A stretch of 64,000 nt of DNA. Origin: Alistipes shahii (lineage in GTDB: Bacteria > Bacillota_I > Bacilli_A > RFN20 > CAG-826). The translations under genes were made by a program, and so were the position numbers. This document shows positions 26,536 through 36,739 of this stretch, one piece after another. The stretch covers positions 31,198-95,197 of the forward strand of contig CAVBUY010000003.1 in the NCBI GenBank assembly GCA_963598795.1. Reading direction: 5' to 3'. Every line of letters begins with the position of its first letter. The stretch's first letter is position 1. The notes under the pieces were generated by a model, which was not told where the DNA came from, searched no databases, and saw nothing but the letters and a program-made list of their open reading frames with translations.

Positions 26536-26613
26536 TTCTTTCTATATGTCGATTGATAAACTCTTTAAGTCAAAAGGTTTTCGCGTAGTTTGAAAGTCGC
26601 TTGTTTTTGATGC

Positions 26614-27993
26614 CTACTTATACAAATCTTCGAGCGTAATGAAAATATACGGGTATTCTTTTTCGATCTTGAATCCGTTTTTGGAAATAAACCCGTATTG
26701 AGTGGGCGTTAAGGTAGTTTTTCTCACCTGTTCCAATTCTTCTTTTATCGTTTCGTCGGTTACTGGCTCATTGGTGAATTTGCACTCGAAGAAGACGTAT
26801 CCGTTTTGGTTTCTTCCGACGATATCGAATTGGCCGTTTTTCTTCTCTTTTGGGTTATCGTACCAATATGTGCCAATATTTAGAAGCGGCGGGTTTATAT
26901 GGCCAATCTTATTTTCTTTTATTAAGTATTGCTTGCCTATGGTTTCGAAGACCGCGGGAACCGTCTTTGATTCGAAGTCGCTTTTGATGAAGAAATCATA
27001 GAAATCCGTGTCATTCAAAACGCTGTGGGCGGACTCGTTGCGGTAAATGTAGTTGTAATAGAAACTGACGCAGAAGTCGGAAATGCGATATCCGGCTTTT
27101 TGTTTGTTCTTCGCATCGTTTATGGGATAAACATAATCGATGAGATCCATAGATATAAGCTTTTGGAGGATAGCAGACAACGCCGCTGATGACCCAATAT
27201 GCGATTCGGAGAGAATGTCGTTGAAGTGGAAGGCTCCATAGGCAATGGACTCGAATACGGCGTTTGCATTGTTTATTTTGCGCAATTCGCTTTTTAGATA
27301 GATTTCCAAAAAGTCTTTCAATCCCGAAAATTGACCGCTCAAGATATTGATGATATTGTCTTTGACTGAAAGGCTGTCATCGATTTGCGCGTTGTAAAAC
27401 GGCACGCCTCCAAAGGCGGCATATAGTTTTACCTTATCTTCATTATTGAATGATGGGTAGAATTTCGACGCGTCATAATAATCCATCTGCTTCAGCAACA
27501 TGGAATTGGCGAATCTCATATACAAAGGGCTGTCTTGGTTTTGGATCTCTTCCATCGTTGAAACTGAACTGCCCAAAAGGAAAAATTTCAAATTGGTTTT
27601 CATCGCGTACTTGTCGATTACCTCTTGAAGCTTGGAATCGCATCCGTCGATTAAGCCTCGGATATACGGGTATTCATCGATGACGAAATATAGGCTTTTG
27701 TCTGAAGCGTAATCGAAGATGAAATCAATCGCCTCCAAGAAATGGTCAAAATGGAGATATTTGATGTTTAATTCGCGTTTTATTAATTCGGTGATGAGAT
27801 TTGTATTGTCTTTTTCGGAGGACTCTTTGCATTGATAAATAATGAAAGGCACGCCCTTATTCATTAAACAATGCTTTACAAGCTCAGTCTTCCCCATGCG
27901 TCTTCTACCATAGATCAAACAGCCTTGGTAACCTTTCTTTTTTAAGATGCCGTCTATGGCTTTTTGTTCAAACTCTCTGCCAATGAAATTCAT
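26614..27993 (-). CDS. AAA ATPase of the archaeal-ATPase/DUF234 type
   Basis: Walker A YGRRRMGKTELV, Walker B FVIDEYPY. The C-terminal part has a short nuclease-like/DUF234 pattern (GQFDIVG...FFECKF). Confidence 0.7.
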   Translation of the reverse strand: MNFIGREFEQKAIDGILKKKGYQGCLIYGRRRMGKTELVKHCLMNKGVPFIIYQCKESSEKDNTNLITELIKRELNIKYLHFDHFLEAIDFIFDYASDKSLYFVIDEYPYIRGLIDGCDSKLQEVIDKYAMKTNLKFFLLGSSVSTMEEIQNQDSPLYMRFANSMLLKQMDYYDASKFYPSFNNEDKVKLYAAFGGVPFYNAQIDDSLSVKDNIINILSGQFSGLKDFLEIYLKSELRKINNANAVFESIAYGAFHFNDILSESHIGSSAALSAILQKLISMDLIDYVYPINDAKNKQKAGYRISDFCVSFYYNYIYRNESAHSVLNDTDFYDFFIKSDFESKTVPAVFETIGKQYLIKENKIGHINPPLLNIGTYWYDNPKEKKNGQFDIVGRNQNGYVFFECKFTNEPVTDETIKEELEQVRKTTLTPTQYGFISKNGFKIEKEYPYIFITLEDLYK

Positions 27994-28444
27994 ATGAACC
28001 CTCCTAAAACTTAGTCATTTATGATTTAGTCAATTATGAATTACTAAAATATTAAGGCAGTAGAAGATGGAAGTCAATTCAATATATAGTCGTGGGAATA
28101 CGCACTAAGCGAAACAAGACTGGCGATTGTTTTGAAACAAAAGCACAAGCCGTACAAGGCAAGAGAAAATTGTTAAATCAGTAATTGCCAACTACGAGAC
28201 GCTTCTTTAGTCATGTAAAAACAAAAAAGGAAAAGGCCTTTGCTTCAGGCAATGGAGATTTAGCAAAAAGCTTTATTGGATGCGGCTTCAGATTGATATA
28301 TCAAATCCTAAAAAAGTCCATGTATCAACGAAATCTGCGAAGGTAAAAAAAGCGGTTATGTTGGATTTCGCGGCCGCACTGTGGTTAGCGCGTAATTTAA
28401 CTCCGAAAAAGGCAACCACTAAAATCTGGTTTCTTGCGCCTTGA

Positions 28445-28460
28445 CTCTCTCTCTCTCTCT
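28445..28460. repeat. (CT)8 dinucleotide microsatellite
   Basis: ctctctctctctctct read directly. It sits between TTGACT (28441-28446) and TAGAAT (28460-28465). Confidence 0.95.
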
Positions 28461-28493
28461 AGAATGGATTCGTAAAATATTGAAGGCAAAACT

Positions 28494-29072
28494 GTGGCTG
28501 AGAATTTTAGCAAACAAGAAAACTACAAGGGTCTAATTAAAAGATATGACCAAGCCTTTAAACGTGGGTTTTATTTGGAGACGGTGGCAATAACTTATGC
28601 GTTAATAGAAGATAGATTGACATCTGCTTTGAACAAATTGGAGATTGTATCTGTCGATATCGAAGGCAAGCCAAGGCTCAAAAGCGTAATTAGCAAATTT
28701 TCGGAGGAAATAGTTGGTAAACGCTACAAAAAAGTCGTTTTGAGAAAAATTACTGACAAATTCTTATTTTTAAAGAGTTGTTTGGAATTTTGCAAAAACG
28801 AAAAATCTCAAATCTTAGAGAAAATACCCGATAAGGCTTTTTTTGAAATTTATAGCAAATGCAAGCGTATAAACGTTGAAAAACATTTCTTTGAAGATTT
28901 CGAGGAATGGAAGAACGAAAGAAATAAATTGGTTCATGATTTGTCGAATTTTAAATCTTCTATTGAAATGAAAGAAACGGCGAAGAGATGCTCCAAAATG
29001 GGCTACAGCCTATTTAGGATATTGGATAATGAAATTTGCCGTAAATTCAGGAAGGGTGGAACAATAAAATAG
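28494..29072 (+). CDS. hypothetical 192-aa alpha-helical protein with HEPN-like RxxxxH motif
   Basis: GTG start with GAAGG 7 nt upstream. ERNKLVHD (R-x4-H) near the C-terminus and a YALIEDRL helix near the N-terminus. Confidence 0.5.
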   Translation: MAENFSKQENYKGLIKRYDQAFKRGFYLETVAITYALIEDRLTSALNKLEIVSVDIEGKPRLKSVISKFSEEIVGKRYKKVVLRKITDKFLFLKSCLEFCKNEKSQILEKIPDKAFFEIYSKCKRINVEKHFFEDFEEWKNERNKLVHDLSNFKSSIEMKETAKRCSKMGYSLFRILDNEICRKFRKGGTIK

Positions 29073-29152
29073 GCGTGTTATACGGGTGATATTAATGTCG
29101 ATGCAGTCGTTAATAAAGGCTACACATTCTGAGAATATAGGGAGTTGCAACA

Positions 29153-30529
29153 ATGAAAAGGAAGATCATGATTTTAAGCATTTTACTAATTGGTTCAATT
29201 GCTCCGACTAGTGGTTGTTCTGATAATGCTCCTTTCGATAGTTCTTCCATTAGCGACACCATTTACGTCGTTACTTTCGATTCTGGCGGCGGAACCTATG
29301 TAGATAGTCAAAATATTGCAAAAGGAGAAAAAATTAAAAAGCCAGAAGACCCCACTAAATCGGGATACACGTTCTTAGGCTGGTATGATTTAAATACCGG
29401 CGAAAAATGGTTTTTTAGTGGAGGGGTTGTGACTGAGAATATCACTCTAACCGCCAAATGGAACGCAAACAAAAACAGTTTGTCCGTTACTAGCGAAGAC
29501 AAATCCAAAGGAACCGTATCGATAGTATCTGGCGTTGGATATTCGGATGAAACGATAACTGTTACGGCCACCCCGGTTGGCGATTGCATTTTCAATAGCT
29601 GGTTTGACGGAAACGGCAAGGTCAGCGATAAAACAACTTATTCCTTTACTATGCCAACAAGCGATTACGCCTTGGTTGCTCATTTCTATACAAAAGCGGA
29701 GGTAGATGAAAAAGAAGAGGAACGTAACAAGAAATTAGGCATCATCCCCGCCATCGACGAAACAAATCACACTTTAACCTATGGCTTGTATCCCCAGACT
29801 CACGTCAATGACGATAACACCATCGCCGCCTTAGATGCCTTGGCTTCCCCGGAAAGCAACGGCTGGTATTTATACAACGACGAATATTACGCCAAAACAT
29901 CAGCGAATCCACATTATTCTAGTTATACGTTCAACGATGGCACCACAATCGTTAAAGACACGACATATTGGTTCAAATGTGAATTAATTGAATGGAAGAT
30001 CCTCTCTTCTGGCGACGGCGCGTATTCCGTCGTCTCGTCCTTATTGCTCGATACCCATCGATATAATGAATATTACGGCGGTACCAAAAATGGTTATTAC
30101 GCAAATAATTATTCAAATTCCGAGATAAGAAGCTGGCTGAACGGCGAGTTCTATTCGTCCGCGTTCGCTCTTGGTGATCGTTATATCCAAACCACAACAG
30201 TCGACAACTCGCCCTCGACGACGAATTCCCCGAGTAACAAATACGCATGCGAAAACACCGAGGACAAAGTCTATCTCCTCAGCTATCAAGATTATATGAA
30301 CGAGTTTTATTTCGTTGACAATGCATCGAGGAAGTGCGAGGTCACCGACTGGGCCAAAGCCAACAAGGCATATTGCTATGATGGTTTCGGTATCTATTGG
30401 ACCCGTTCGCCTAACTCCTACAATTCCAGCAACGCGTGGGACGTGCGCTCCGGTGGCGGCCTCGGCAGCAGCGGCGTCGGCGACTCCTACGACGGCGTCC
30501 GCCCCAGCCTTTCCTTGAAGATTTCGTAG
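29153..30529 (+). CDS. DGR target: surface lipoprotein with two Listeria-Bacteroides (Flg_new) repeats and a C-terminal variable C-type-lectin/DUF6273-like domain
   Basis: Signal peptide plus lipobox (SIAPTSGC). VTFDSGGG...GYTFLGWYD repeat signature. C-terminus YWTRSPNS...NAWDV...GVRPSLSL carries the VR. AGGGAG RBS. Confidence 0.85.
   Translation: MKRKIMILSILLIGSIAPTSGCSDNAPFDSSSISDTIYVVTFDSGGGTYVDSQNIAKGEKIKKPEDPTKSGYTFLGWYDLNTGEKWFFSGGVVTENITLTAKWNANKNSLSVTSEDKSKGTVSIVSGVGYSDETITVTATPVGDCIFNSWFDGNGKVSDKTTYSFTMPTSDYALVAHFYTKAEVDEKEEERNKKLGIIPAIDETNHTLTYGLYPQTHVNDDNTIAALDALASPESNGWYLYNDEYYAKTSANPHYSSYTFNDGTTIVKDTTYWFKCELIEWKILSSGDGAYSVVSSLLLDTHRYNEYYGGTKNGYYANNYSNSEIRSWLNGEFYSSAFALGDRYIQTTTVDNSPSTTNSPSNKYACENTEDKVYLLSYQDYMNEFYFVDNASRKCEVTDWAKANKAYCYDGFGIYWTRSPNSYNSSNAWDVRSGGGLGSSGVGDSYDGVRPSLSLKIS
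30404..30514 (+). repeat. DGR variable repeat (VR)
   Basis: 111 bp aligning without gaps to 31039-31149 (offset 635). All 19 mismatches lie opposite TR adenines. Confidence 0.9.
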
Positions 30530-30554
30530 CGAAGCGGAGAAACAATCCTCAATC

Positions 30555-30589
30555 GCCTGCCGCCAATCAAAAGCCTTCAGGCGGCAGGC
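30555..30589 (+). other. GC-rich hairpin 40 nt downstream of VR
   Basis: Perfect 10-bp stem gcctgccgcc / ggcggcaggc with a 15-nt loop and no following T-run. Confidence 0.7.
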
Positions 30590-30602
30590 TAACTTCAACG
30601 AC

Positions 30603-30998
30603 ATGAAACAGAGACTAAACGAAAGCAATGAAAGAAAAGAAACCGAATTATTGGTGTTTATGAAAGCAAAGGATTTATCCGCTTACATTTTAAGGGCAAG
30701 CGCCAAATCCCCGGTCAAATACCGATATTCGATCTTAAATTCATTGATACACGAATCGTTGGCCATCATCCAATTGTTGTATGAGGCAAACGATTTGGAC
30801 ATAAAAGACAGAAATAGGCTTATGCTCATAAATCAAGCTAACGCAAAATTGAAATTGATCGATTTCCTCTCGTCTTTGTCAACAGACGTCTTATGTTTCA
30901 CCAAGCACCAACATGAGGTGATCTTGGAAAAAATAGGTGTTTGCTCTAAGTACTTGGCGGGCTATAAAAACGTCTGCAAAAAGGCTTTGGCAATATAG
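30603..30998 (+). CDS. avd: DGR accessory variability determinant (Avd-like four-helix-bundle protein)
   Basis: 131 aa and helical, with ELLVFMKAKDLSAYIL...KYRYSILNSLIHESLAI resembling the 23S-rRNA-IVS/Avd family. Canonical position between VR and TR. Confidence 0.72.
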   Translation: MKQRLNESNERKETELLVFMKAKDLSAYILRASAKSPVKYRYSILNSLIHESLAIIQLLYEANDLDIKDRNRLMLINQANAKLKLIDFLSSLSTDVLCFTKHQHEVILEKIGVCSKYLAGYKNVCKKALAI

Positions 30999-31038
30999 GG
31001 ATTCGTTATAGGGTGCGCAATTGCGCTTGTATCGTGCA

Positions 31039-31149
31039 CGTTCGCCTAACTCCAACAATTCCAACAACGCGTGGAACGTGAACTCCGATGGCGACCTCAA
31101 CAACAACAACGTCAACAACTCCAACAACGGCGTCCGCCCCAGACTTTCC
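31039..31149 (+). repeat. DGR template repeat (TR)
   Basis: 34 adenines and 14 AAC triplets in the VR reading frame. Non-coding (the 60-aa ORF across it is an artefact). May extend 2 nt 5' to 31037. Confidence 0.9.
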
Positions 31150-31287
31150 CGAATAGGGCTTTTGCCCCTTAAGGAATCAGCCAATCAGGCGGTTGGCTCA
31201 TAAGGAAAGGGAACGATACCCCTAATCGCACTATATGCGATGAAACAAGCATAAGCGAGGAAGACCGCAAAAAGACGTTTTTCCTCC

Positions 31288-32319
31288 ATGATCCTTATGC
31301 TTTTTATTATGAATTACGAAGAAACGTTCACTTTCAATAATTTGCTAAAAGCCCATAAAAAAGTCAGGAAGGGCAAGCTTTTCAAAAGAGAGGTCATGGA
31401 ATTCGAGCTTGAGAAATCCGCCAACTTATATTCTCTCTACGAAGAACTTAATAAAGGGACTTATAAAGTCTCGCCTTATCGAACCTTCTATATCTACGAA
31501 CCGAAGAAGAGAAGAGTGGACGCCACGCCTTACAAAGACAGAATCGTCCAAAATTGCTTGGTGGATAACTATCTATACCCCTTATTGGAAAAGAGGCTCA
31601 TTTACGACAACGCCGCCTGTCGAAAGGGCAAAGGCACGGATTTCGCCAGAAAAAGGCTGAGGGAATTTTTGTTAAAGGAATATAAAAAGAACGGAACGTC
31701 GTTCTACGTTTTCATATTCGACATCCATCATTATTTCGAATCGATAGACCACGACGTTTTGAAAAAGAAGATGGAAAAATTGATAAAAGACGAGAAAATT
31801 CTATCTTTCATCTACAACATCATCGATTCTTTCAATTACGAAATGGGAAAAGGCGTTCCTTTAGGCAATCAGACCAGCCAATGCTTCGCTTTATATTATC
31901 TGGACAAATTCGACAGGATCATCAAAGAAAAATACAAAATAAAGCATTATTCGAGATATGTGGATGATGGAGTCATATTCTCTTCTGACAAAGAGATATT
32001 GATAAGACTCAAAGAAGACCTCGAAAAAGAAACAAAGAATCTAAATTTGGAATTCAATGACTCCAAGTGCGCGATATATCCGATTAAGCAAGGCGTAACT
32101 TATCTTGGATTCACCTATCGCCTTGGCGAAAACGGAAAGATAATCAGCAAGATTTCCAAAAAGAAAAAGAGAAGGCTGATGAGGCATATGAATAAACACA
32201 TGCTAGGAAAAGAGTCGCTCATTTGTTATCGAAACTACCTTAGGATGCGTTCCTCAAATGGAAGCCTCATAAATAAGATAAATCGCCTTATAAAGAGCCA
32301 AAATAATCTCTCTAATTAG
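31288..32319 (+). CDS. DGR reverse transcriptase (alternative start 31309)
   Basis: RT motifs YEPKKRRVDATPYKDRIVQ, AACRKGKG, FDIHHYFESIDH, the DGR-diagnostic PLGNQTSQCFALYYL, and catalytic YVDD. Confidence 0.9.
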   Translation: MILMLFIMNYEETFTFNNLLKAHKKVRKGKLFKREVMEFELEKSANLYSLYEELNKGTYKVSPYRTFYIYEPKKRRVDATPYKDRIVQNCLVDNYLYPLLEKRLIYDNAACRKGKGTDFARKRLREFLLKEYKKNGTSFYVFIFDIHHYFESIDHDVLKKKMEKLIKDEKILSFIYNIIDSFNYEMGKGVPLGNQTSQCFALYYLDKFDRIIKEKYKIKHYSRYVDDGVIFSSDKEILIRLKEDLEKETKNLNLEFNDSKCAIYPIKQGVTYLGFTYRLGENGKIISKISKKKKRRLMRHMNKHMLGKESLICYRNYLRMRSSNGSLINKINRLIKSQNNLSN

Positions 32320-32374: not shown

Positions 32375-33841
32375 ATGGCAAACGAAATAGCGAAAAAATA
32401 CACGGACGAAATATATCTTTCCAAGTCCCAACTACAAACCGTTTTGAACACCTCTTTGGTGGATGGCTATTGGAAGGAGATAAGAAGCTATCGCGGAGGA
32501 TACGCCCATAGGCTCAACGTGAAGACCTTAAGGAAGAACTTCGAGATGGGCATAGTTCTGACCCCGATTATAGAAGGCAAGATATCCTTGCTTCAAAAGG
32601 AAATGGAAAACCTCATTTCCTCCATAAAAAAGATGAGCATGGAGGAAAAAGATGAGGCGGGACGTCTCCTTTTCTATGAGAACCTCGTTTCTTATAACAA
32701 AATAAAGGGCTTAAATATGTCCGAGGCGGCCCTTAAGCAAGTGGTTTCGGGAAGATATCGCCCATCATCCCCTTCCGACAAAGCTTTGGATTTTTATGAG
32801 GCTTTGTCATATTTTGCCTTAAAAGACGATATATTGCCCCCGAACGAAGACTTCTTGGGCGAAGCTTATTCCAAGTTGCTCAAAAGGGAATTGACTTCCT
32901 TTTACCGCACCTTAGATTTCGACGCTTCCGCCAAATTGGCCGAGCAAAGGGACGAGGATTGCCCTTATGCCCCTTTTGAGAAAATAAGCCTTTATATGGA
33001 AGACTTGTTCTCGGCGTTGGAAAACCAAGAATTCAGCCCTCTCATCCGTTCGTTATTGGCCTTGCATTATATGAACGCCGTAAAGCCGTTTCCTTCCTTT
33101 AACGAAGAATTGTCTTTGCTATTAGCTTTGGACGTATTGGCCGAAACCTATGGCAAAGAGGCTTTCTATATGCCTTTGTTTATCTTATTGGAAGACAACG
33201 AGAAGCATAGCGAAGCCTTATTGGGCGTACGAAGCGGGGATTTCACCTATTTCGTTTTATACGCTTTAGACGTATTGAAAGGCAAATTGTCCCATCTAAA
33301 AGAAGAAATAGACGAAATAATCCTTTCTTCCTTTAGAAAGGAAGCCAATTACGTTTCCAAAGAAGAGGAAAGCTATTTTAACGGCAAAGCCGAGCAAATG
33401 TCTTTCCTCGATAACCCCGAGGAATACGAAAAGAAGGAAGAGCCTCTTATTTCGGAAGTTAAGGAAGAGGCAATAAAGCCCATCTTGAAAAAGAAGGAAC
33501 TGATTAGGCCCGAAAAGGTCAACAAAACGGTGGAAAGGATAGAAGGCGAGATATCCATAAAGATGGAATCGAAGCCTTTAAGCGACAAAGAGGCGAAGGA
33601 ATATACGACCTATTTATTGGAATCCAACCCCTCTTTGAACAAAAAGCAAGCTTCTTTCCTTGCCACCCATTGCACTTTGGGGCATTATTACACCATTCAG
33701 CAATATAAGAAATTCGCCCGTTGCGCCTATGAGACGGCCAGAACCTCCATGGACAAGCTGGCGGATCAATCCTATTACGAGAAGAAACAAATTAAGAACA
33801 AATACGTCTACACCCCCATATCCACCAACGGGAAACGCTAA
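32375..33841 (+). CDS. Fic-fold-like protein with degenerate active-site motif and C-terminal winged-helix
   Basis: ALHYMNAVKPFPSFNEELSLLLA aligns to the Fic core lH...IHPFxDGNGRxxRLL, but His, Gly-Asn-Gly and both Arg are replaced. The C-terminus YETARTSMDKLADQSYYEKK...YVYTP is wHTH-like. Confidence 0.4.
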   Translation: MANEIAKKYTDEIYLSKSQLQTVLNTSLVDGYWKEIRSYRGGYAHRLNVKTLRKNFEMGIVLTPIIEGKISLLQKEMENLISSIKKMSMEEKDEAGRLLFYENLVSYNKIKGLNMSEAALKQVVSGRYRPSSPSDKALDFYEALSYFALKDDILPPNEDFLGEAYSKLLKRELTSFYRTLDFDASAKLAEQRDEDCPYAPFEKISLYMEDLFSALENQEFSPLIRSLLALHYMNAVKPFPSFNEELSLLLALDVLAETYGKEAFYMPLFILLEDNEKHSEALLGVRSGDFTYFVLYALDVLKGKLSHLKEEIDEIILSSFRKEANYVSKEEESYFNGKAEQMSFLDNPEEYEKKEEPLISEVKEEAIKPILKKKELIRPEKVNKTVERIEGEISIKMESKPLSDKEAKEYTTYLLESNPSLNKKQASFLATHCTLGHYYTIQQYKKFARCAYETARTSMDKLADQSYYEKKQIKNKYVYTPISTNGKR

Positions 33842-33853
33842 AAGGAGATAAAT

Positions 33854-34240
33854 ATGAAACCCAACATCTTGGCAGTCACCGATAATCCTATAATCTTGGT
33901 CCTTATTTTACTCGCCGTCTTCGGCGTCATAGTCTTAGGGGTCATATTGATCAAAAAATACGTCCCGGCCTTTAAAAACACCGACACCCTCAAATCCGAG
34001 AAGGAAATCGCCGAAGAAGAAGTCAACCGCTTGGTGGTGGATGTCGATGAAGGGCTAAAGAAGAAAGAAGACAAAGATAAGCCCAGTGAAGAAGAGGCTT
34101 TGCGTTACGAGATGAACCGCATCTTGGAAGACGTCCCGGAAGATAAGAAAAAAGAAGAAAAAACCGAAGAAAAGACCGAAATAGTCTTAACCAAGGAAAC
34201 CAAAGAAGAGATCGAAAAGGACAACGAGAAAGAAATCTGA
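33854..34240 (+). CDS. single-pass membrane protein with Glu/Lys-rich tail
   Basis: One TM helix (IILVLILLAVFGVIVLGVILI) then a charged low-complexity tail. AAGGAG RBS. Stop overlaps the hemW start (TGATG). Confidence 0.55.
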   Translation: MKPNILAVTDNPIILVLILLAVFGVIVLGVILIKKYVPAFKNTDTLKSEKEIAEEEVNRLVVDVDEGLKKKEDKDKPSEEEALRYEMNRILEDVPEDKKKEEKTEEKTEIVLTKETKEEIEKDNEKEI

Positions 34241-35368: not shown

Positions 35369-35599
35369 TGGTCTATTTCAAATGATATTAGACACAGTGC
35401 CCGCTAAACAAAAAGCACCTTGCCTGCGATAAGGTTGAACATAAATAGAAGGTAAGATGTGGAGACATTGTGGCACGCTAGTGGAAAAAAGTGACTCCCC
35501 GCGATTTTTCGACGATGATCAGCGTCGTAAATAGAATCGAATGGAACGGATGGCTGCAAAGAACATTGAGCATAACAACAAGGTCAAGAGATTGCTTAG

Positions 35600-35824
35600 G
35601 ATAGACTGGGAAAATTCTACAGAACCCTCAATTTCTATTCCCTCAAAGACTTGAGGGAGCAAGGCAAAAGATGGGTGGCCAGATACAATAAAACGCCGAG
35701 AAGCGTGCTTGATTTGAAGAGTCTAAATGAAATTGAGATTGAAAAGCTTGAGAAGCTGATGCATGAAACTGGGGAAGTGAGATGCCTGAAGCTTCTTAAA
35801 TGTTTCACATCATTCGACAACTAA
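35600..35824 (+). pseudogene. C-terminal remnant of a DDE (rve/integrase-core) transposase
   Basis: The frame gives ...LREQGKRWVARYNKTPRSVLDLKSLNEIE..., matching the W..YN..RP...L...TP.E tail of IS3/IS30-type enzymes. An in-frame stop lies at 35597-35599 and there is no N-terminal part. Confidence 0.4.
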
Positions 35825-35884
35825 CACATGCCAGTTGTATGCATTTTGTAGACAACTGAAATAGGCCAGGGTATCATCTTCGTG

Positions 35885-36739
35885 ATGACAAAACATTCGA
35901 TCAGATATTTTCTAAACAATGAAGTACGCGCCATTTGGGACGATAAAGAGAACAAATGGTGGTATTCCGCCGTCGATGTGATTTCGATAATAACGGATTC
36001 CGATAATCCACGCATCTATTGGAATGCGCTGAAGAAAAGGCATCCGGAGCTTACTGAGTTTTGCAGACAGCTGAAACTCTACGCGGATGATGGCAAACGA
36101 TACTTGTCCGACGTTATTAACGAAGATGGCATCAACAGGCTCCGTTTTATCATTCATAAATCCAAAAATCCCGAGTTCGAAAAATGGATGGTAGGCGGTT
36201 TGGACCCAATCGATGAACGAAGCAAGAAGAAGGCCTATGAGCTATATAAAACGCATTTGGCCGATGAAGACGAAGTCGGAAAAACCGTATCTCTTGAGAA
36301 AATACACGCTTATTTGTTTGAGGGCCTTTATCCATTCGCCGGGCAAATAAGGGAAGCGACGATTTCCAAAGGGGGCTTTGTTTTCGCTAACGGAGATTTT
36401 CTGTCAGACACTTTAAAGAAAGTCGAATCCATGCCGCAAGGCTCATTCGATGAGATAGTGGAGAAATATGTCGAAATGAACATAGCCCATCCATTTATGG
36501 AAGGAAACGGACGCGCAACGAGGATATGGCTCGATTTGATATTCATCAAAGAAATCCATAAATGCGTCGATTGGTCCAAAATCGACAAAGAAGATTATTT
36601 TGAGGCCATGAAAATAAGCTATGTGGACGATAGCAAAATAAAAAGGTTGTTACGAAACGCGCTTACTGACGATATTGGCAACAGAGAATTGTTCATGAAG
36701 GGAATAGATACCTCGTACTATTACGAAGAAGCGGAATAG
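35885..36739 (+). CDS. Fic-domain protein (AMPylase-type) with Bro-N-like N-terminal domain
   Basis: Canonical HPFMEGNGRATR motif. The N-terminal IRYFLNNEVRAIWD..WWYSAVDVISIITDS..PRIYW is Bro-N/antirepressor-like. Confidence 0.8.
   Translation: MTKHSIRYFLNNEVRAIWDDKENKWWYSAVDVISIITDSDNPRIYWNALKKRHPELTEFCRQLKLYADDGKRYLSDVINEDGINRLRFIIHKSKNPEFEKWMVGGLDPIDERSKKKAYELYKTHLADEDEVGKTVSLEKIHAYLFEGLYPFAGQIREATISKGGFVFANGDFLSDTLKKVESMPQGSFDEIVEKYVEMNIAHPFMEGNGRATRIWLDLIFIKEIHKCVDWSKIDKEDYFEAMKISYVDDSKIKRLLRNALTDDIGNRELFMKGIDTSYYYEEAE

What the first reader, a model, noticed from the sequence alone, without database searches (positions are those of the whole stretch)
30404..31149. VR/TR pair: 111 bp, 19 mismatches, every one at a TR adenine
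Hand alignment at a constant offset of 635 nt with no gaps gives 92/111 identity. The 19 differences are A to G (15), A to C (2) and A to T (2) relative to TR. No C, G or T of TR differs. TR has 34 adenines, so 19 of 34 are substituted in the current VR allele. In the VR reading frame, TR contains 14 AAC codons. AAC is the classic DGR design, because A-mutagenesis of it cannot create a stop codon. Fifteen codons differ between TR and VR. An intact ORF with such a heavily substituted VR argues that mutagenic retrohoming has happened in this lineage. The 5' boundary is ambiguous by 2 nt (31037 versus 31039).
Basis: seen in the sequence. Interest (0 to 1): 0.85.

Follow-up and report, generated by a model that had tools for sequence, protein, structure and literature searches.

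The report
Complete chromosomal diversity-generating retroelement (DGR)
This is a textbook diversity-generating retroelement, in which a reverse transcriptase rewrites the tip of a bacterial surface lipoprotein at template adenines; it is real and was active in this lineage, but it is an ordinary member of a well-known system.

Summary
The observation reproduces exactly. VR 30404-30514 and TR 31039-31149 align without gaps at an offset of 635 nt, with 92/111 identity. All 19 mismatches fall at TR adenines (P about 1.6e-12). The TR has 14 in-frame AAC codons and 15 codons differ.

The pair sits in a complete cassette: lipoprotein target gene with a DUF6273 (C-type-lectin-like) end, IMH, GC hairpin, avd, TR, structured spacer RNA and a bRT-like reverse transcriptase.

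Two refinements:
- The last mismatch (TR A31143 / VR C30508) is a fixed IMH*/IMH difference shared by relatives, not mutagenesis. So 18 of 32 copyable adenines are substituted.
- The 5' boundary is 31039.

A sister genome (L199, cassette 92% identical) has a TR identical at 110/111 positions. Its VR differs from this one at 26 positions, 23 of them A-templated. The single TR SNP is copied into each genome's own VR, which is direct evidence of TR-to-VR transfer.

Other close relatives lack the DGR but keep RT 3' remnants, so the element was ancestral between lepA and hemW and was lost by deletion at least twice.

Current activity could not be tested. Verdict: new member of a known kind, modest interest.

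The parts
26562..32299 (.). Variable island between lepA and orf488/hemW. It holds an ATPase_2/DUF234 ATPase (26614-27993, minus strand), orf192 (28494-29072) and the DGR cassette.
   Evidence: L200 is 98% identical on both flanks but lacks this stretch. Other relatives keep only ATPase 5' and RT 3' remnants.
29153..30529 (+). DGR target gene. It encodes a 458-aa predicted lipoprotein (signal peptide ending TSGC) with two Listeria-Bacteroides/InlB B-repeat domains and a C-terminal DUF6273 domain.
   Evidence: Pfam Flg_new 7e-18, Flg_new_2 8e-12 and DUF6273 8.5e-21. The Cys at about residue 21 is conserved in homologues. AF2 pLDDT is 90.8 for the whole protein and 96.5 for the C-terminal domain. 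The only significant PDB fold match is the 9qa6 N-terminal domain.
30404..30514 (+). Variable repeat (VR), codons 418-454 of the target. The substituted positions lie at 30419-30491.
30494..30514 (+). IMH-like 3' end of the VR (GGCGTCCGCCCCAGCCTTTCC). C30508 is the fixed difference from IMH*.
   Evidence: VR has C at this site in every listed relative whose repeat pair covers it (10, plus the window), while TR has A, or G in L003. The definition of IMH is in PMC5758913.
30522..30542 (+). Small stem-loop (TTTC...GAAA with an inner GC/GC) that spans the target stop codon, 8 nt after the VR.
   Evidence: RNAalifold on 13 relatives finds 6 pairs, 5 of them with compensatory changes.
30555..30589 (+). 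GC-rich inverted repeat (10-bp stem GCCTGCCGCC/GGCGGCAGGC) with a 15-nt loop that starts AATCAAAA. It is the candidate target-recognition hairpin/cruciform.
   Evidence: z = -2.3. Most of the 11 loci scanned, including the window, have a 10-15-bp stem of different sequence at 37-49 nt from the VR, with a conserved ATCAA loop start. L007 and L011 gave only 7-bp perfect stems in the scan. There is no T tract, so it is not called a terminator.
30603..30998 (+). avd, the accessory variability determinant (131 aa, pI 9.4).
   Evidence: PHROG 3206 'Avd protein of DGR' 6e-12. NCBIfam DivGenRetAVD 6.6e-10, below its cutoff. Pfam bAvd 8e-6, below its gathering score; 19 of 20 relatives hit bAvd. pI.
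30996..31007 (+). 5' strand (TAGGG.TTCGTT) of a long-range RNA duplex with 31212-31224, analogous to the BPP-1 'cPRT Stop' duplex.
   Evidence: Searches find 11 pairs, 3 with compensatory changes. The analogue is described in bioRxiv 10.1101/2023.10.23.563531.
31039..31149 (+). Template repeat (TR): 34 A and 14 in-frame AAC codons.
   Evidence: It is 110/111 identical to the TRs of L199 and L206, while the flanks are 92% identical.
31129..31149 (+). IMH*-like 3' end of the TR. It pairs with spacer 31203-31211, so it lies 3' of the inferred cDNA start.
   Evidence: Helices H3 and H4. A31141 is unchanged and A31143 is a fixed difference in relatives.
31150..31287 (+). Spacer (Sp) part of the DGR RNA. 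It has stem-loops at 31156-31167, 31179-31198 (Avd-binding-like), 31225-31241 and 31257-31286, plus the duplex strands 31203-31211 and 31212-31224.
   Evidence: Of 47 pairs, 94.9% are paired and 19 have compensatory changes. No shuffle out of 500 reaches these values, and slid controls give 38-56% paired. No Rfam family matches.
31288..32319 (+). DGR reverse transcriptase (343 aa, YVDD, motif PLGNQTSQ).
   Evidence: The best PDB match is 8ub7, the RT of the Bordetella phage DGR complex, at 5.4e-36; group II RT scores 2.8e-14. Pfam RVT_1 1e-21. PHROG 1423 2e-94.

Best explanation
The finding is the VR/TR pair of a complete, canonical architecture-B1 DGR (target-avd-TR-RT), carried on a 5.7-kb chromosomal island between lepA and hemW in an uncultured Bacillota (Bacilli-like) genome whose RT relatives come largely from gut and other host-associated MAGs.

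Proposed mechanism:
1. A transcript running from the 3' end of avd through the TR and the 138-nt spacer folds into a conserved structure (shown by covariation).
2. The 3' end of the TR (IMH*) pairs with spacer 31203-31211, and the sequence upstream of the TR pairs with spacer 31212-31224.
3. By analogy with the Bordetella phage element, the RT-Avd complex cis-primes cDNA synthesis from a spacer nucleotide near 31212-31216 and starts copying at about TR 31129-31138. It misincorporates at template adenines only (inferred).
4. The cDNA replaces VR 30404 to about 30493. The IMH at the VR 3' end and the downstream hairpin(s) mark the VR as the recipient, and the fixed A/C difference at 31143/30508 distinguishes donor from recipient (inferred).
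5. The result is re-randomisation of up to 16 codons (14 AAC, one GAT and one GAC) in the last strands and loops of a C-type-lectin-like DUF6273 domain on a surface-anchored lipoprotein. This changes its ligand specificity; the ligand is unknown.

TR-to-VR transfer in this lineage is shown by comparison with L199. Present-day activity is not shown.
For: - A-only mismatches with P = 1.6e-12, and an AAC-rich in-frame TR.
- The RT is closest to Bordetella bRT (8ub7, 5.4e-36) and has the DGR-type LGxxxSQ and YVDD motifs.
- An Avd homologue of the right size, position and pI.
- Most of the 70 RT relatives from GTDB genomes (47 of 70) carry TR/VR pairs with at least 80% of mismatches at TR adenines, including nearly all loci with at least 44% RT identity.
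- The RNA structure is conserved: 47 pairs, 19 compensatory, 0/500 shuffles. Its layout matches the BPP-1 RNP elements.
- The hairpin after the VR is conserved, with covarying stems.
- Sister locus L199 has a TR 110/111 identical, and its VR differs at 26 sites. Of these, 23 are A-templated and 1 is the TR SNP, present in each genome's own VR.
- In a more distant clade member pair (L014/L015), avd-TR-RT is 99.8% identical but the VRs differ at 24 sites, 21 of them at TR adenines.
- The target domain is DUF6273, already reported as a DGR target with the VR at its C-terminus (PMC11792537, PMC10743442). Its only solved relative is described as a C-type-lectin-like core (PMC12237041).
Against: - There are no read-level or same-strain data, so current activity is untested. 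No other genome with the same TR allele and a readable VR was found.
- The Avd HMM scores are below curated cutoffs, and a profile search did not reach bAvd in the PDB.
- The post-VR hairpin has a 13-23-nt loop rather than the 4-nt GRNA loop that is critical in BPP-1 (PMC3240598). Its role is therefore an extrapolation.
- Foldseek did not return Mtd or TvpA among its top hits.
- The priming nucleotide and the exact cDNA start are inferred only.
- The substitution spectrum is oddly G-rich: 15/18, against 6/22 in L199.
Confidence: 0.93

Rival explanations
1. It is a genuine DGR that is now inactive. The VR allele is a frozen product of past retrohoming and the cassette is on its way to loss.
For: Close relatives have repeatedly deleted the cassette, leaving RT 3' remnants. 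This shows it is dispensable. No population heterogeneity could be demonstrated. Clusters of DUF6273 homologues at 90% identity or more show no C-terminal hypervariability, although their DGR status is unknown.
Against: The RT, avd and target ORFs are intact, with catalytic YVDD. The TR is more conserved than its flanks (1/111 against about 8%). The RNA helices keep pairing. Logan contigs from SRR13434614 are 100% identical to the window but break on either side of the VR without any shared 31-mer between VR and TR. That is compatible with VR heterogeneity, but it is only a weak hint.
Confidence: 0.3
2. It is an ordinary diverged duplication, or the product of strand-specific adenine deamination (A-to-I/G editing-like damage), unrelated to reverse transcription.
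For: Fifteen of the 19 changes are A>G, the change that deamination would give.
Against: A>T and A>C changes also occur. The L199 VR, with a 92%-identical cassette, has 11 A>T, 6 A>G and 6 A>C. The family-wide spectrum is G 141, T 99, C 39. A-only restriction by chance has P = 1.6e-12. The full DGR gene and RNA set lies between and beside the repeats. A TR SNP at a non-A site is copied to each VR.
Confidence: 0.01
3. The RT belongs to another retroelement class (group II intron, retron, or an Abi/DRT defence RT), and the repeat pair is coincidental.
For: The best NCBIfam hit is the group II intron RT/maturase model (3.7e-35), with weaker Drt3a and Drt2 hits. All are far below their cutoffs, and no DGR RT model appeared among the hits.
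Against: The PDB comparison favours bRT by about 70 bits over group II RT. The protein is 343 aa with no maturase or endonuclease extension. No group II intron or retron RNA was found by Rfam. Most relatives of this RT, including nearly all the close ones, sit next to A-specific TR/VR pairs.
Confidence: 0.01

Closest known systems
Bordetella phage BPP-1 DGR (mtd-avd-TR-brt), the prototype
   Same: It has the same gene order (architecture B1, PMC5758913) and A-only TR/VR differences with an AAC-rich TR. It has IMH/IMH* at the repeat 3' ends and a GC-rich inverted repeat after the VR. Its RT is the best solved-structure match (8ub7, 5.4e-36), and it has an Avd homologue. The RNA layout also agrees: stem-loops just after the TR, a TR 3' end:spacer duplex, an adjacent upstream:spacer duplex and a long 3' stem-loop.
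   Different: This element is chromosomal with no phage genes nearby. Its target is a cell-surface lipoprotein with a DUF6273 domain, not a tail-fibre Mtd. The hairpin lies about 40 nt from the VR and has a 15-nt loop with a conserved ATCAA start, instead of a 4-nt GRNA loop 4-34 bp away (PMC3240598). The Avd is very divergent (sub-threshold HMM scores).
Legionella pneumophila (LdtA) and Treponema denticola (TvpA) chromosomal DGRs that diversify lipoproteins
   Same: These are cellular DGRs that diversify the C-terminal C-type-lectin-fold domain of a surface lipoprotein (own knowledge; cited in the reference list of PMC8144416 and described in PMC5758913). The Legionella element is also avd-TR-RT and sits on a variable island.
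   Different: The host phylum differs (Bacillota). The target scaffold differs (InlB-type B-repeats plus DUF6273). Treponema uses HRDC rather than Avd (PMC5758913). No sequence or fold match to TvpA was returned here.
DUF6273-targeting DGRs of gut phages (Faecalibacterium prophages, 'tentaclin' phages)
   Different: Those elements are phage-borne and diversify receptor-binding or tail proteins. Viral-contig relatives of this RT are at most 39% identical, whereas cellular MAG relatives reach 68% and 90% or more.

Membership tests
Diversity-generating retroelement (DGR) | Two near-identical repeats (TR and VR) whose differences fall at TR adenines. | tested here: met
   19 of 19 mismatches are at TR A, with no gaps; P = 1.6e-12.
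Diversity-generating retroelement (DGR) | The VR lies at the 3' end of a protein-coding target gene. TR adenines are concentrated in codon positions 1-2 (AAC codons). | tested here: met
   The VR covers codons 418-454 of a 458-codon ORF. There are 14 AAC codons. Thirty-three of the 34 A are at codon positions 1 or 2.
Diversity-generating retroelement (DGR) | An adjacent reverse transcriptase of the DGR clade (compact, with the [I/L/V]GxxxSQ motif and Y[M/V]DD). | tested here: met
   The RT is 343 aa. Its best PDB hit is the Bordetella DGR RT 8ub7 at 5.4e-36, against 2.8e-14 for group II RT. PLGNQTSQ aligns to bRT PIGSLTSQ, and YVDD to YMDD. The motif definition is from own knowledge and (I181, Q187). 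No RT phylogeny was built.
Diversity-generating retroelement (DGR) | Accessory protein Avd (about 130 aa, basic, helical) between target and TR. It is present in about 74% of DGRs, so it is not obligatory. | tested here: met
   The protein is 131 aa with pI 9.4. Hits are PHROG 'Avd protein of DGR' 6e-12, NCBIfam DivGenRetAVD 6.6e-10 and Pfam bAvd 8e-6. The last two are below curated cutoffs. Nineteen of 20 orthologues hit bAvd. A PDB profile search did not reach bAvd.
Diversity-generating retroelement (DGR) | IMH at the VR 3' end and a non-identical IMH* at the TR 3' end, beginning with a GC-rich segment and marking the 3' limit of mutagenesis. | tested here: met
   GGCGTCCGCCCCAG(C/A)CTTTCC follows the last substituted A. 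The C/A difference recurs in every listed relative whose repeat pair covers the site (10, plus the window); in L003 the TR has G there. Its function is not testable here.
Diversity-generating retroelement (DGR) | A GC-rich inverted repeat downstream of IMH (found in about a third of DGRs; 7-10 bp stem and 4-nt GRNA loop in phage DGRs). | tested here: inconclusive
   A 10-bp GC stem is present and covaries in relatives. However, the loop is 15 nt with an ATCAA start and the stem begins 41 nt after the VR. A second small stem-loop lies 8 nt after the VR. Which of the two, if either, serves in target recognition is unknown.
Diversity-generating retroelement (DGR) | A structured DGR RNA: stem-loop(s) just 3' of the TR, a TR 3' end:spacer template-primer duplex, and an upstream:spacer duplex. 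| tested here: met
   Covariation supports all of these helices: 47 pairs, 94.9% paired, 19 compensatory, 0/500 shuffles, slid controls at most 56%. The layout is compared. Priming chemistry is not testable.
Diversity-generating retroelement (DGR) | Unidirectional TR-to-VR information transfer with adenine mutagenesis (mutagenic retrohoming). | tested here: met
   This is historical evidence only. Comparing the window with L199, the TRs are 110/111 identical and the VRs differ at 26 sites. Of these, 23 are A-templated, and the one TR SNP (31089 T/C) appears in each cognate VR. Present-day activity is not testable with these tools.
Diversity-generating retroelement (DGR) | The variable protein uses a C-type-lectin (or Ig-like) fold that displays the VR residues. 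| tested here: inconclusive
   Pfam DUF6273 scores 8.5e-21, above its cutoff. The AF2 domain model has pLDDT 96.5. The only significant Foldseek hit is the 9qa6 N-terminal domain (2.2e-6, TM 0.47), which its authors describe as a C-type-lectin-like core. Canonical C-type lectins appear only at E > 1, and Mtd and TvpA are not among the top hits (PMC12237041; PMC10743442).
Group II intron / retron / defence RT (considered and rejected) | A maturase/X or endonuclease domain with an intron RNA; msr/msd; or an effector fusion. | tested here: not met
   There are no extra domains and no Rfam RNA hit. All NCBIfam group II and Drt scores are far below their cutoffs.

The most novel reading that the evidence does not exclude
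The conserved unit may be 'VR through RT' rather than 'target gene through RT'. The window and L199 share 92% DNA identity starting at the 5' edge of the VR. Upstream, their target genes are unalignable at the DNA level and only 42% identical as protein, with different repeat arrays. This would be a natural case of a DGR cassette re-attached to a different DUF6273 scaffold, with the recombination junction masked by TR-driven overwriting of the VR. Together with the clade-specific hairpin (long ATCAA loop) and the recurrent neighbouring AAA_14/DUF4143 or DUF234 ATPases, it would define a distinct cellular Bacillota DGR lineage with its own target-recognition rules.
Probability: 0.2. Interest if true: 0.5.

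Novelty: new member of a known kind. Interest (0 to 1): 0.3.

Why it matters
The locus adds no new principle. DGRs with this architecture, mechanism and target domain family are already described and catalogued in very large numbers.

Its value is as a clean natural example in an uncultured Bacillota (Bacilli-like) lineage:
- All cis and trans parts can be read off the sequence.
- A sister genome supplies a natural 'marker co-conversion' experiment, in which a TR SNP is copied to each genome's own VR.
- The DGR-less alleles document repeated loss by deletion at a housekeeping locus (lepA-hemW-hrcA-grpE-dnaK).
[quoted passage not shown] This makes host-facing ligand binding a reasonable hypothesis to test.

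Tried and rejected
- **Degenerate pattern scan.** A scan with the TR pattern (A replaced by N) over JGI metagenome contigs gave 0 hits.
- **Exact-protein look-ups.** Neither the target nor Avd is on record elsewhere. The RT and orf192 were found only on two Logan contigs from SRR13434614. These are 100% identical to the window and stop on either side of the VR. This is suggestive of VR heterogeneity, but the breaks lie 40-80 nt outside the variable positions, so I do not count it as evidence.
- **RT relatives in other collections.** The best matches were 53% in metagenome contigs and 39% in viral contigs, so there is no same-species material there.
- **Homologue searches.** The full target gave nothing above 62% identity (59% for hits covering at least three quarters of the query), and its last 119 aa gave only three 46-49% hits. 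No VR variants were recovered.
- **Cluster variability.** Within-cluster variation of four DUF6273 homologue clusters showed no C-terminal hypervariability. This is uninformative because their DGR status is unknown.
- **Fold search with the whole target model.** It was dominated by the InlB B-repeats, so I repeated it with the C-terminal domain alone.
- **Avd profile against the PDB.** It gave only a weak hit to 2rld (E = 0.11).
- **Rfam.** There were no hits at gathering or E-value thresholds.
- **Promoter and terminator scan.** Counts were no higher than in shuffles, and the post-VR hairpin is not terminator-like.
- **RNAalifold on the post-VR region.** It missed the GC hairpin because the stems do not align, so I used a per-sequence search instead. 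That script stopped with an error at L014, after listing 11 loci including the window.
- **Spurious ORF.** The 60-aa ORF 31021-31203 over the TR is an artefact of the TR being a copy of coding sequence.
Full report
**Observation.** There are 111 aligned bases, no gaps, 92 identities and 19 mismatches. All mismatches lie where the downstream copy (TR, 31039-31149) has A: 15 A>G, 2 A>C and 2 A>T. The TR has 34 A. An independent repeat finder reports the same pair. Given 34 A among 111 positions, the chance that all 19 differences fall on A is 1.6e-12.

In the frame of ORF 29153-30529 the TR carries 14 AAC codons and 15 codons differ. Thirty-three of the 34 adenines occupy codon positions 1 or 2. 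The VR is 69% G+C and the TR 54%, in a 42% G+C window. No further copy of the repeat exists on either strand of the window.

**Anatomy of the cassette.** The VR forms codons 418-454 of a 458-codon gene. The product starts with a signal peptide ending in TSGC, and the Cys is conserved in homologues. It has two Listeria-Bacteroides/InlB B-repeat domains and a C-terminal DUF6273 domain.

Downstream lie three further elements:
- A 131-aa basic protein (pI 9.4). It matches 'Avd protein of DGR' in PHROGs (6e-12). It also matches the NCBIfam and Pfam Avd models, but below their curated cutoffs. Nineteen of 20 orthologues hit Pfam bAvd.
- The TR.
- After a 138-nt spacer, a 343-aa reverse transcriptase. 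Its best solved relative is 8ub7, the RT of the Bordetella phage DGR complex (5.4e-36). The next best is a group II intron RT at 2.8e-14. PLGNQTSQ aligns with bRT PIGSLTSQ, and YVDD with YMDD.

This is the most common DGR layout, architecture B1 of PMC5758913.

**Refinement of the 19th mismatch and of the boundaries.** In every listed relative of this cassette whose repeat pair covers the site (10, plus the window), the VR has C where the TR has A in the motif CCCAG(A/C)CTT. In L003 the TR has G there. With a family spectrum in which A>C is the rarest change (G 141, T 99, C 39), this is a fixed IMH*/IMH difference and not a mutagenesis product.

It lies inside the TR segment that pairs with the spacer (see below). 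The neighbouring A31141 is never changed. The last substituted adenine is TR 31126. So 18 of the 32 adenines in the copied part are substituted.

At the 5' end, position 30403/31038 is C/A in the window but A/C in the sister locus L199.

**DGR RNA.** An alignment from the avd stop codon to the RT start in eight cassettes gives a consensus fold. I re-counted it after removing the intra-TR helices. Of 47 pairs, 94.9% of cells are paired and 19 pairs have compensatory changes. None of 500 column shuffles reaches these values. Sliding the 3' partners by 1-3 columns drops pairing to 38-56%.

In window coordinates the helices are:
- 30996-31000/31220-31224 and 31002-31007/31212-31217: upstream of the TR with the spacer.
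- 31139-31140/31210-31211 and 31144-31150/31203-31209: the TR 3' end with the spacer.
- Stem-loops at 31156-31167, 31179-31198, 31225-31241 and 31257-31286.

An alternative pairing of 31213-31215 with TR 31131-33 appears in a shorter alignment. I therefore infer only that cDNA synthesis starts between about 31129 and 31138, primed near 31212-31216. No Rfam family covers this RNA.

**Target-side structures.** A 10-bp GC-rich inverted repeat (30555-30564/30580-30589) with a 15-nt loop begins 41 nt after the VR. Most of the 11 loci scanned, including the window, have a 10-15-bp stem of different sequence 37-49 nt after the VR, and most loops begin with ATCAA. L007 and L011 gave only 7-bp perfect stems in that scan. 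It has no T tract.

A second, small stem-loop (30522-30542) spans the stop codon and also covaries.

In BPP-1 the hairpin has an 8-bp stem and a 4-nt GRNA loop whose size is critical (PMC3240598). The stem features agree here but the loop does not, so I leave this feature as inconclusive.

**Target fold.** AlphaFold2 models are confident: pLDDT 90.8 for the whole protein and 96.5 for residues 195-458. [quoted passage not shown] That domain is annotated DUF6273 (PMC12402451), and its authors describe it as an enlarged C-type-lectin-like core (PMC12237041). Classical C-type lectins appear only at E > 1. DUF6273 has been reported as a DGR target domain in gut phages (PMC11792537, PMC10743442).

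**Family and activity.** The RT retrieves 70 loci from GTDB genomes. The best (62-68% identity) come from Bacilli, Erysipelotrichaceae and similar MAGs. A script finds A-specific TR/VR pairs in most of them. Viral contigs reach only 39% identity and metagenome contigs 53%. In L014/L015, avd-TR-RT is 99.8% identical, yet the VRs differ at 24 of 110 positions, 21 of them A-templated.

The decisive comparison came from the 90% clusters of the RT and of the downstream orf488. L199 (ENA ERZ15610583) carries the same cassette at 92% DNA identity, followed by the same orf488-orf128-hemW. Its TR differs from the window's at a single non-A site (window 31089, T versus C). Each genome's VR carries its own TR's base at that site. 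The two VRs differ at 26 positions, 23 of which are TR adenines. This is the natural equivalent of a marker co-conversion assay and shows TR-to-VR transfer after the two lineages split.

The L199 VR has 11 A>T, 6 A>G and 6 A>C. So the window's G-rich spectrum (15/18) is not a property shared by the 92%-identical cassette (Fisher P = 5e-4). Selection on the allele is my preferred reading, but it is untested.

**Genomic context and history.** The window is chromosomal. The gene order is addB/addA-like nucleases, lepA, the island, orf488, orf128, hemW-like radical SAM, a Fic/Bro-N gene, hrcA, grpE, dnaK, dnaJ. No phage structural genes are seen.

L200 (GCA_963613795.1) is 98% identical on both flanks but lacks window 26562-32299. 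Homology resumes 20 nt before the RT stop codon. L201, L203, L204 and L205 (91-94%) also lack the cassette. They retain about 250 nt of the RT 3' end (from window 32071) and a fragment of the ATPase 5' end. More distant syntenic relatives (L004, L006) have the DGR upstream of the same orf488-orf128-hemW. The element was therefore ancestral at this site and has been deleted at least twice, with different end points.

Between the window and L199, DNA homology begins abruptly at the VR 5' edge. Upstream, the target genes share only 42% protein identity and have different repeat arrays. The scaffold has therefore been exchanged.

**Verdict.** The locus is a complete, canonical DGR that has demonstrably retrohomed in this lineage. 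Whether it is active now cannot be decided without reads. It is a new member of a well-known kind, and the small departures (long-loop hairpin, divergent Avd, scaffold swap, neighbouring ATPases) are variations that specialists would expect. I score interest at 0.3.

Noticed in passing
window 26562-32299; L200 7370-7925; L201 3197-3789; L203, L204, L205: The whole DGR island is a presence/absence polymorphism. Genomes 91-98% identical in the flanks lack it but keep an RT 3' remnant (from window 32071 or 32300) and an ATPase 5' remnant (about 27750-28083). This implies at least two independent deletions.
   Followed up: yes
window 29153-30403 versus L199 1-1599: The cassette is 92% identical from the VR 5' edge onward, but the target gene body upstream is unalignable at the DNA level. 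It is 42% identical as protein, and L199 has about five F(S)GWDKSL repeats. The scaffold has been swapped, with the junction at or within the VR.
   Followed up: partly
window 26614-27993 (minus strand); L004 6002-7342; L006 296-1237; L009 8968-10332; L011 6823-8196; L019; L021/L024/L026/L065: AAA ATPases of the AAA_14+DUF4143 or ATPase_2+DUF234 type lie within 5 kb of the cassette in the window and in 9 of 26 close-clade loci. None occur in about 170 distant DGR loci. Position and strand vary. This may be a taxon or island effect rather than a functional link.
   Followed up: partly
window 30404-30514: The substitution spectrum is strongly G-biased (15 of 18), giving a Gly/Ser/Asp-rich VR. 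The sister VR in L199, with a near-identical TR and RT, is T-rich (Tyr/Leu). Fisher P = 5e-4.
   Followed up: partly
window 30363-30595 (gap between Logan contigs L072 and L001): Two contigs from run SRR13434614 are 100% identical to the window and end on either side of the VR. VR and TR share no 31-mer. This is compatible with VR heterogeneity or with low coverage of a GC-rich patch.
   Followed up: partly
window 35369-36570 (Fic/Bro-N gene 35882-36739): A Fic-domain protein with an N-terminal Bro-N domain sits between hemW and hrcA. This stretch is missing in L199, L201 and L204, and L203 has a DUF4143 fragment next to it. It is a second variable spot inside the conserved heat-shock gene cluster.
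   Followed up: no
window 32375-33841 and 33854-34240: orf488 and orf128 have no Pfam, NCBIfam or PHROG match. They are conserved immediately upstream of hemW in all relatives, with or without the DGR, so they are not part of the DGR.
   Followed up: partly
target residues 195-458 (window 29735-30526): [quoted passage not shown] Constructs lacking that domain were comparably active in IgA cleavage, and its function was left open.
   Followed up: partly
L014 2615-2724 versus L015 4091-4200: Two GTDB species representatives share a 99.8%-identical avd-TR-RT, but their VRs differ at 24 of 110 sites, 21 of them at TR adenines. This is evidence of recent activity elsewhere in the clade.
   Followed up: yes
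protein clusters of P0005, P0038, P0080, P0093: Homologous DUF6273 lipoproteins clustered at 90% identity or more show no excess variation in the VR-equivalent C-terminus. Many family members may not be DGR targets, or their DGRs may be quiet.
   Followed up: no
window 31021-31203: A 60-aa ORF runs through the TR in the VR frame (Asn-rich). It is a by-product of the TR being a copy of coding sequence, not a gene.
   Followed up: yes
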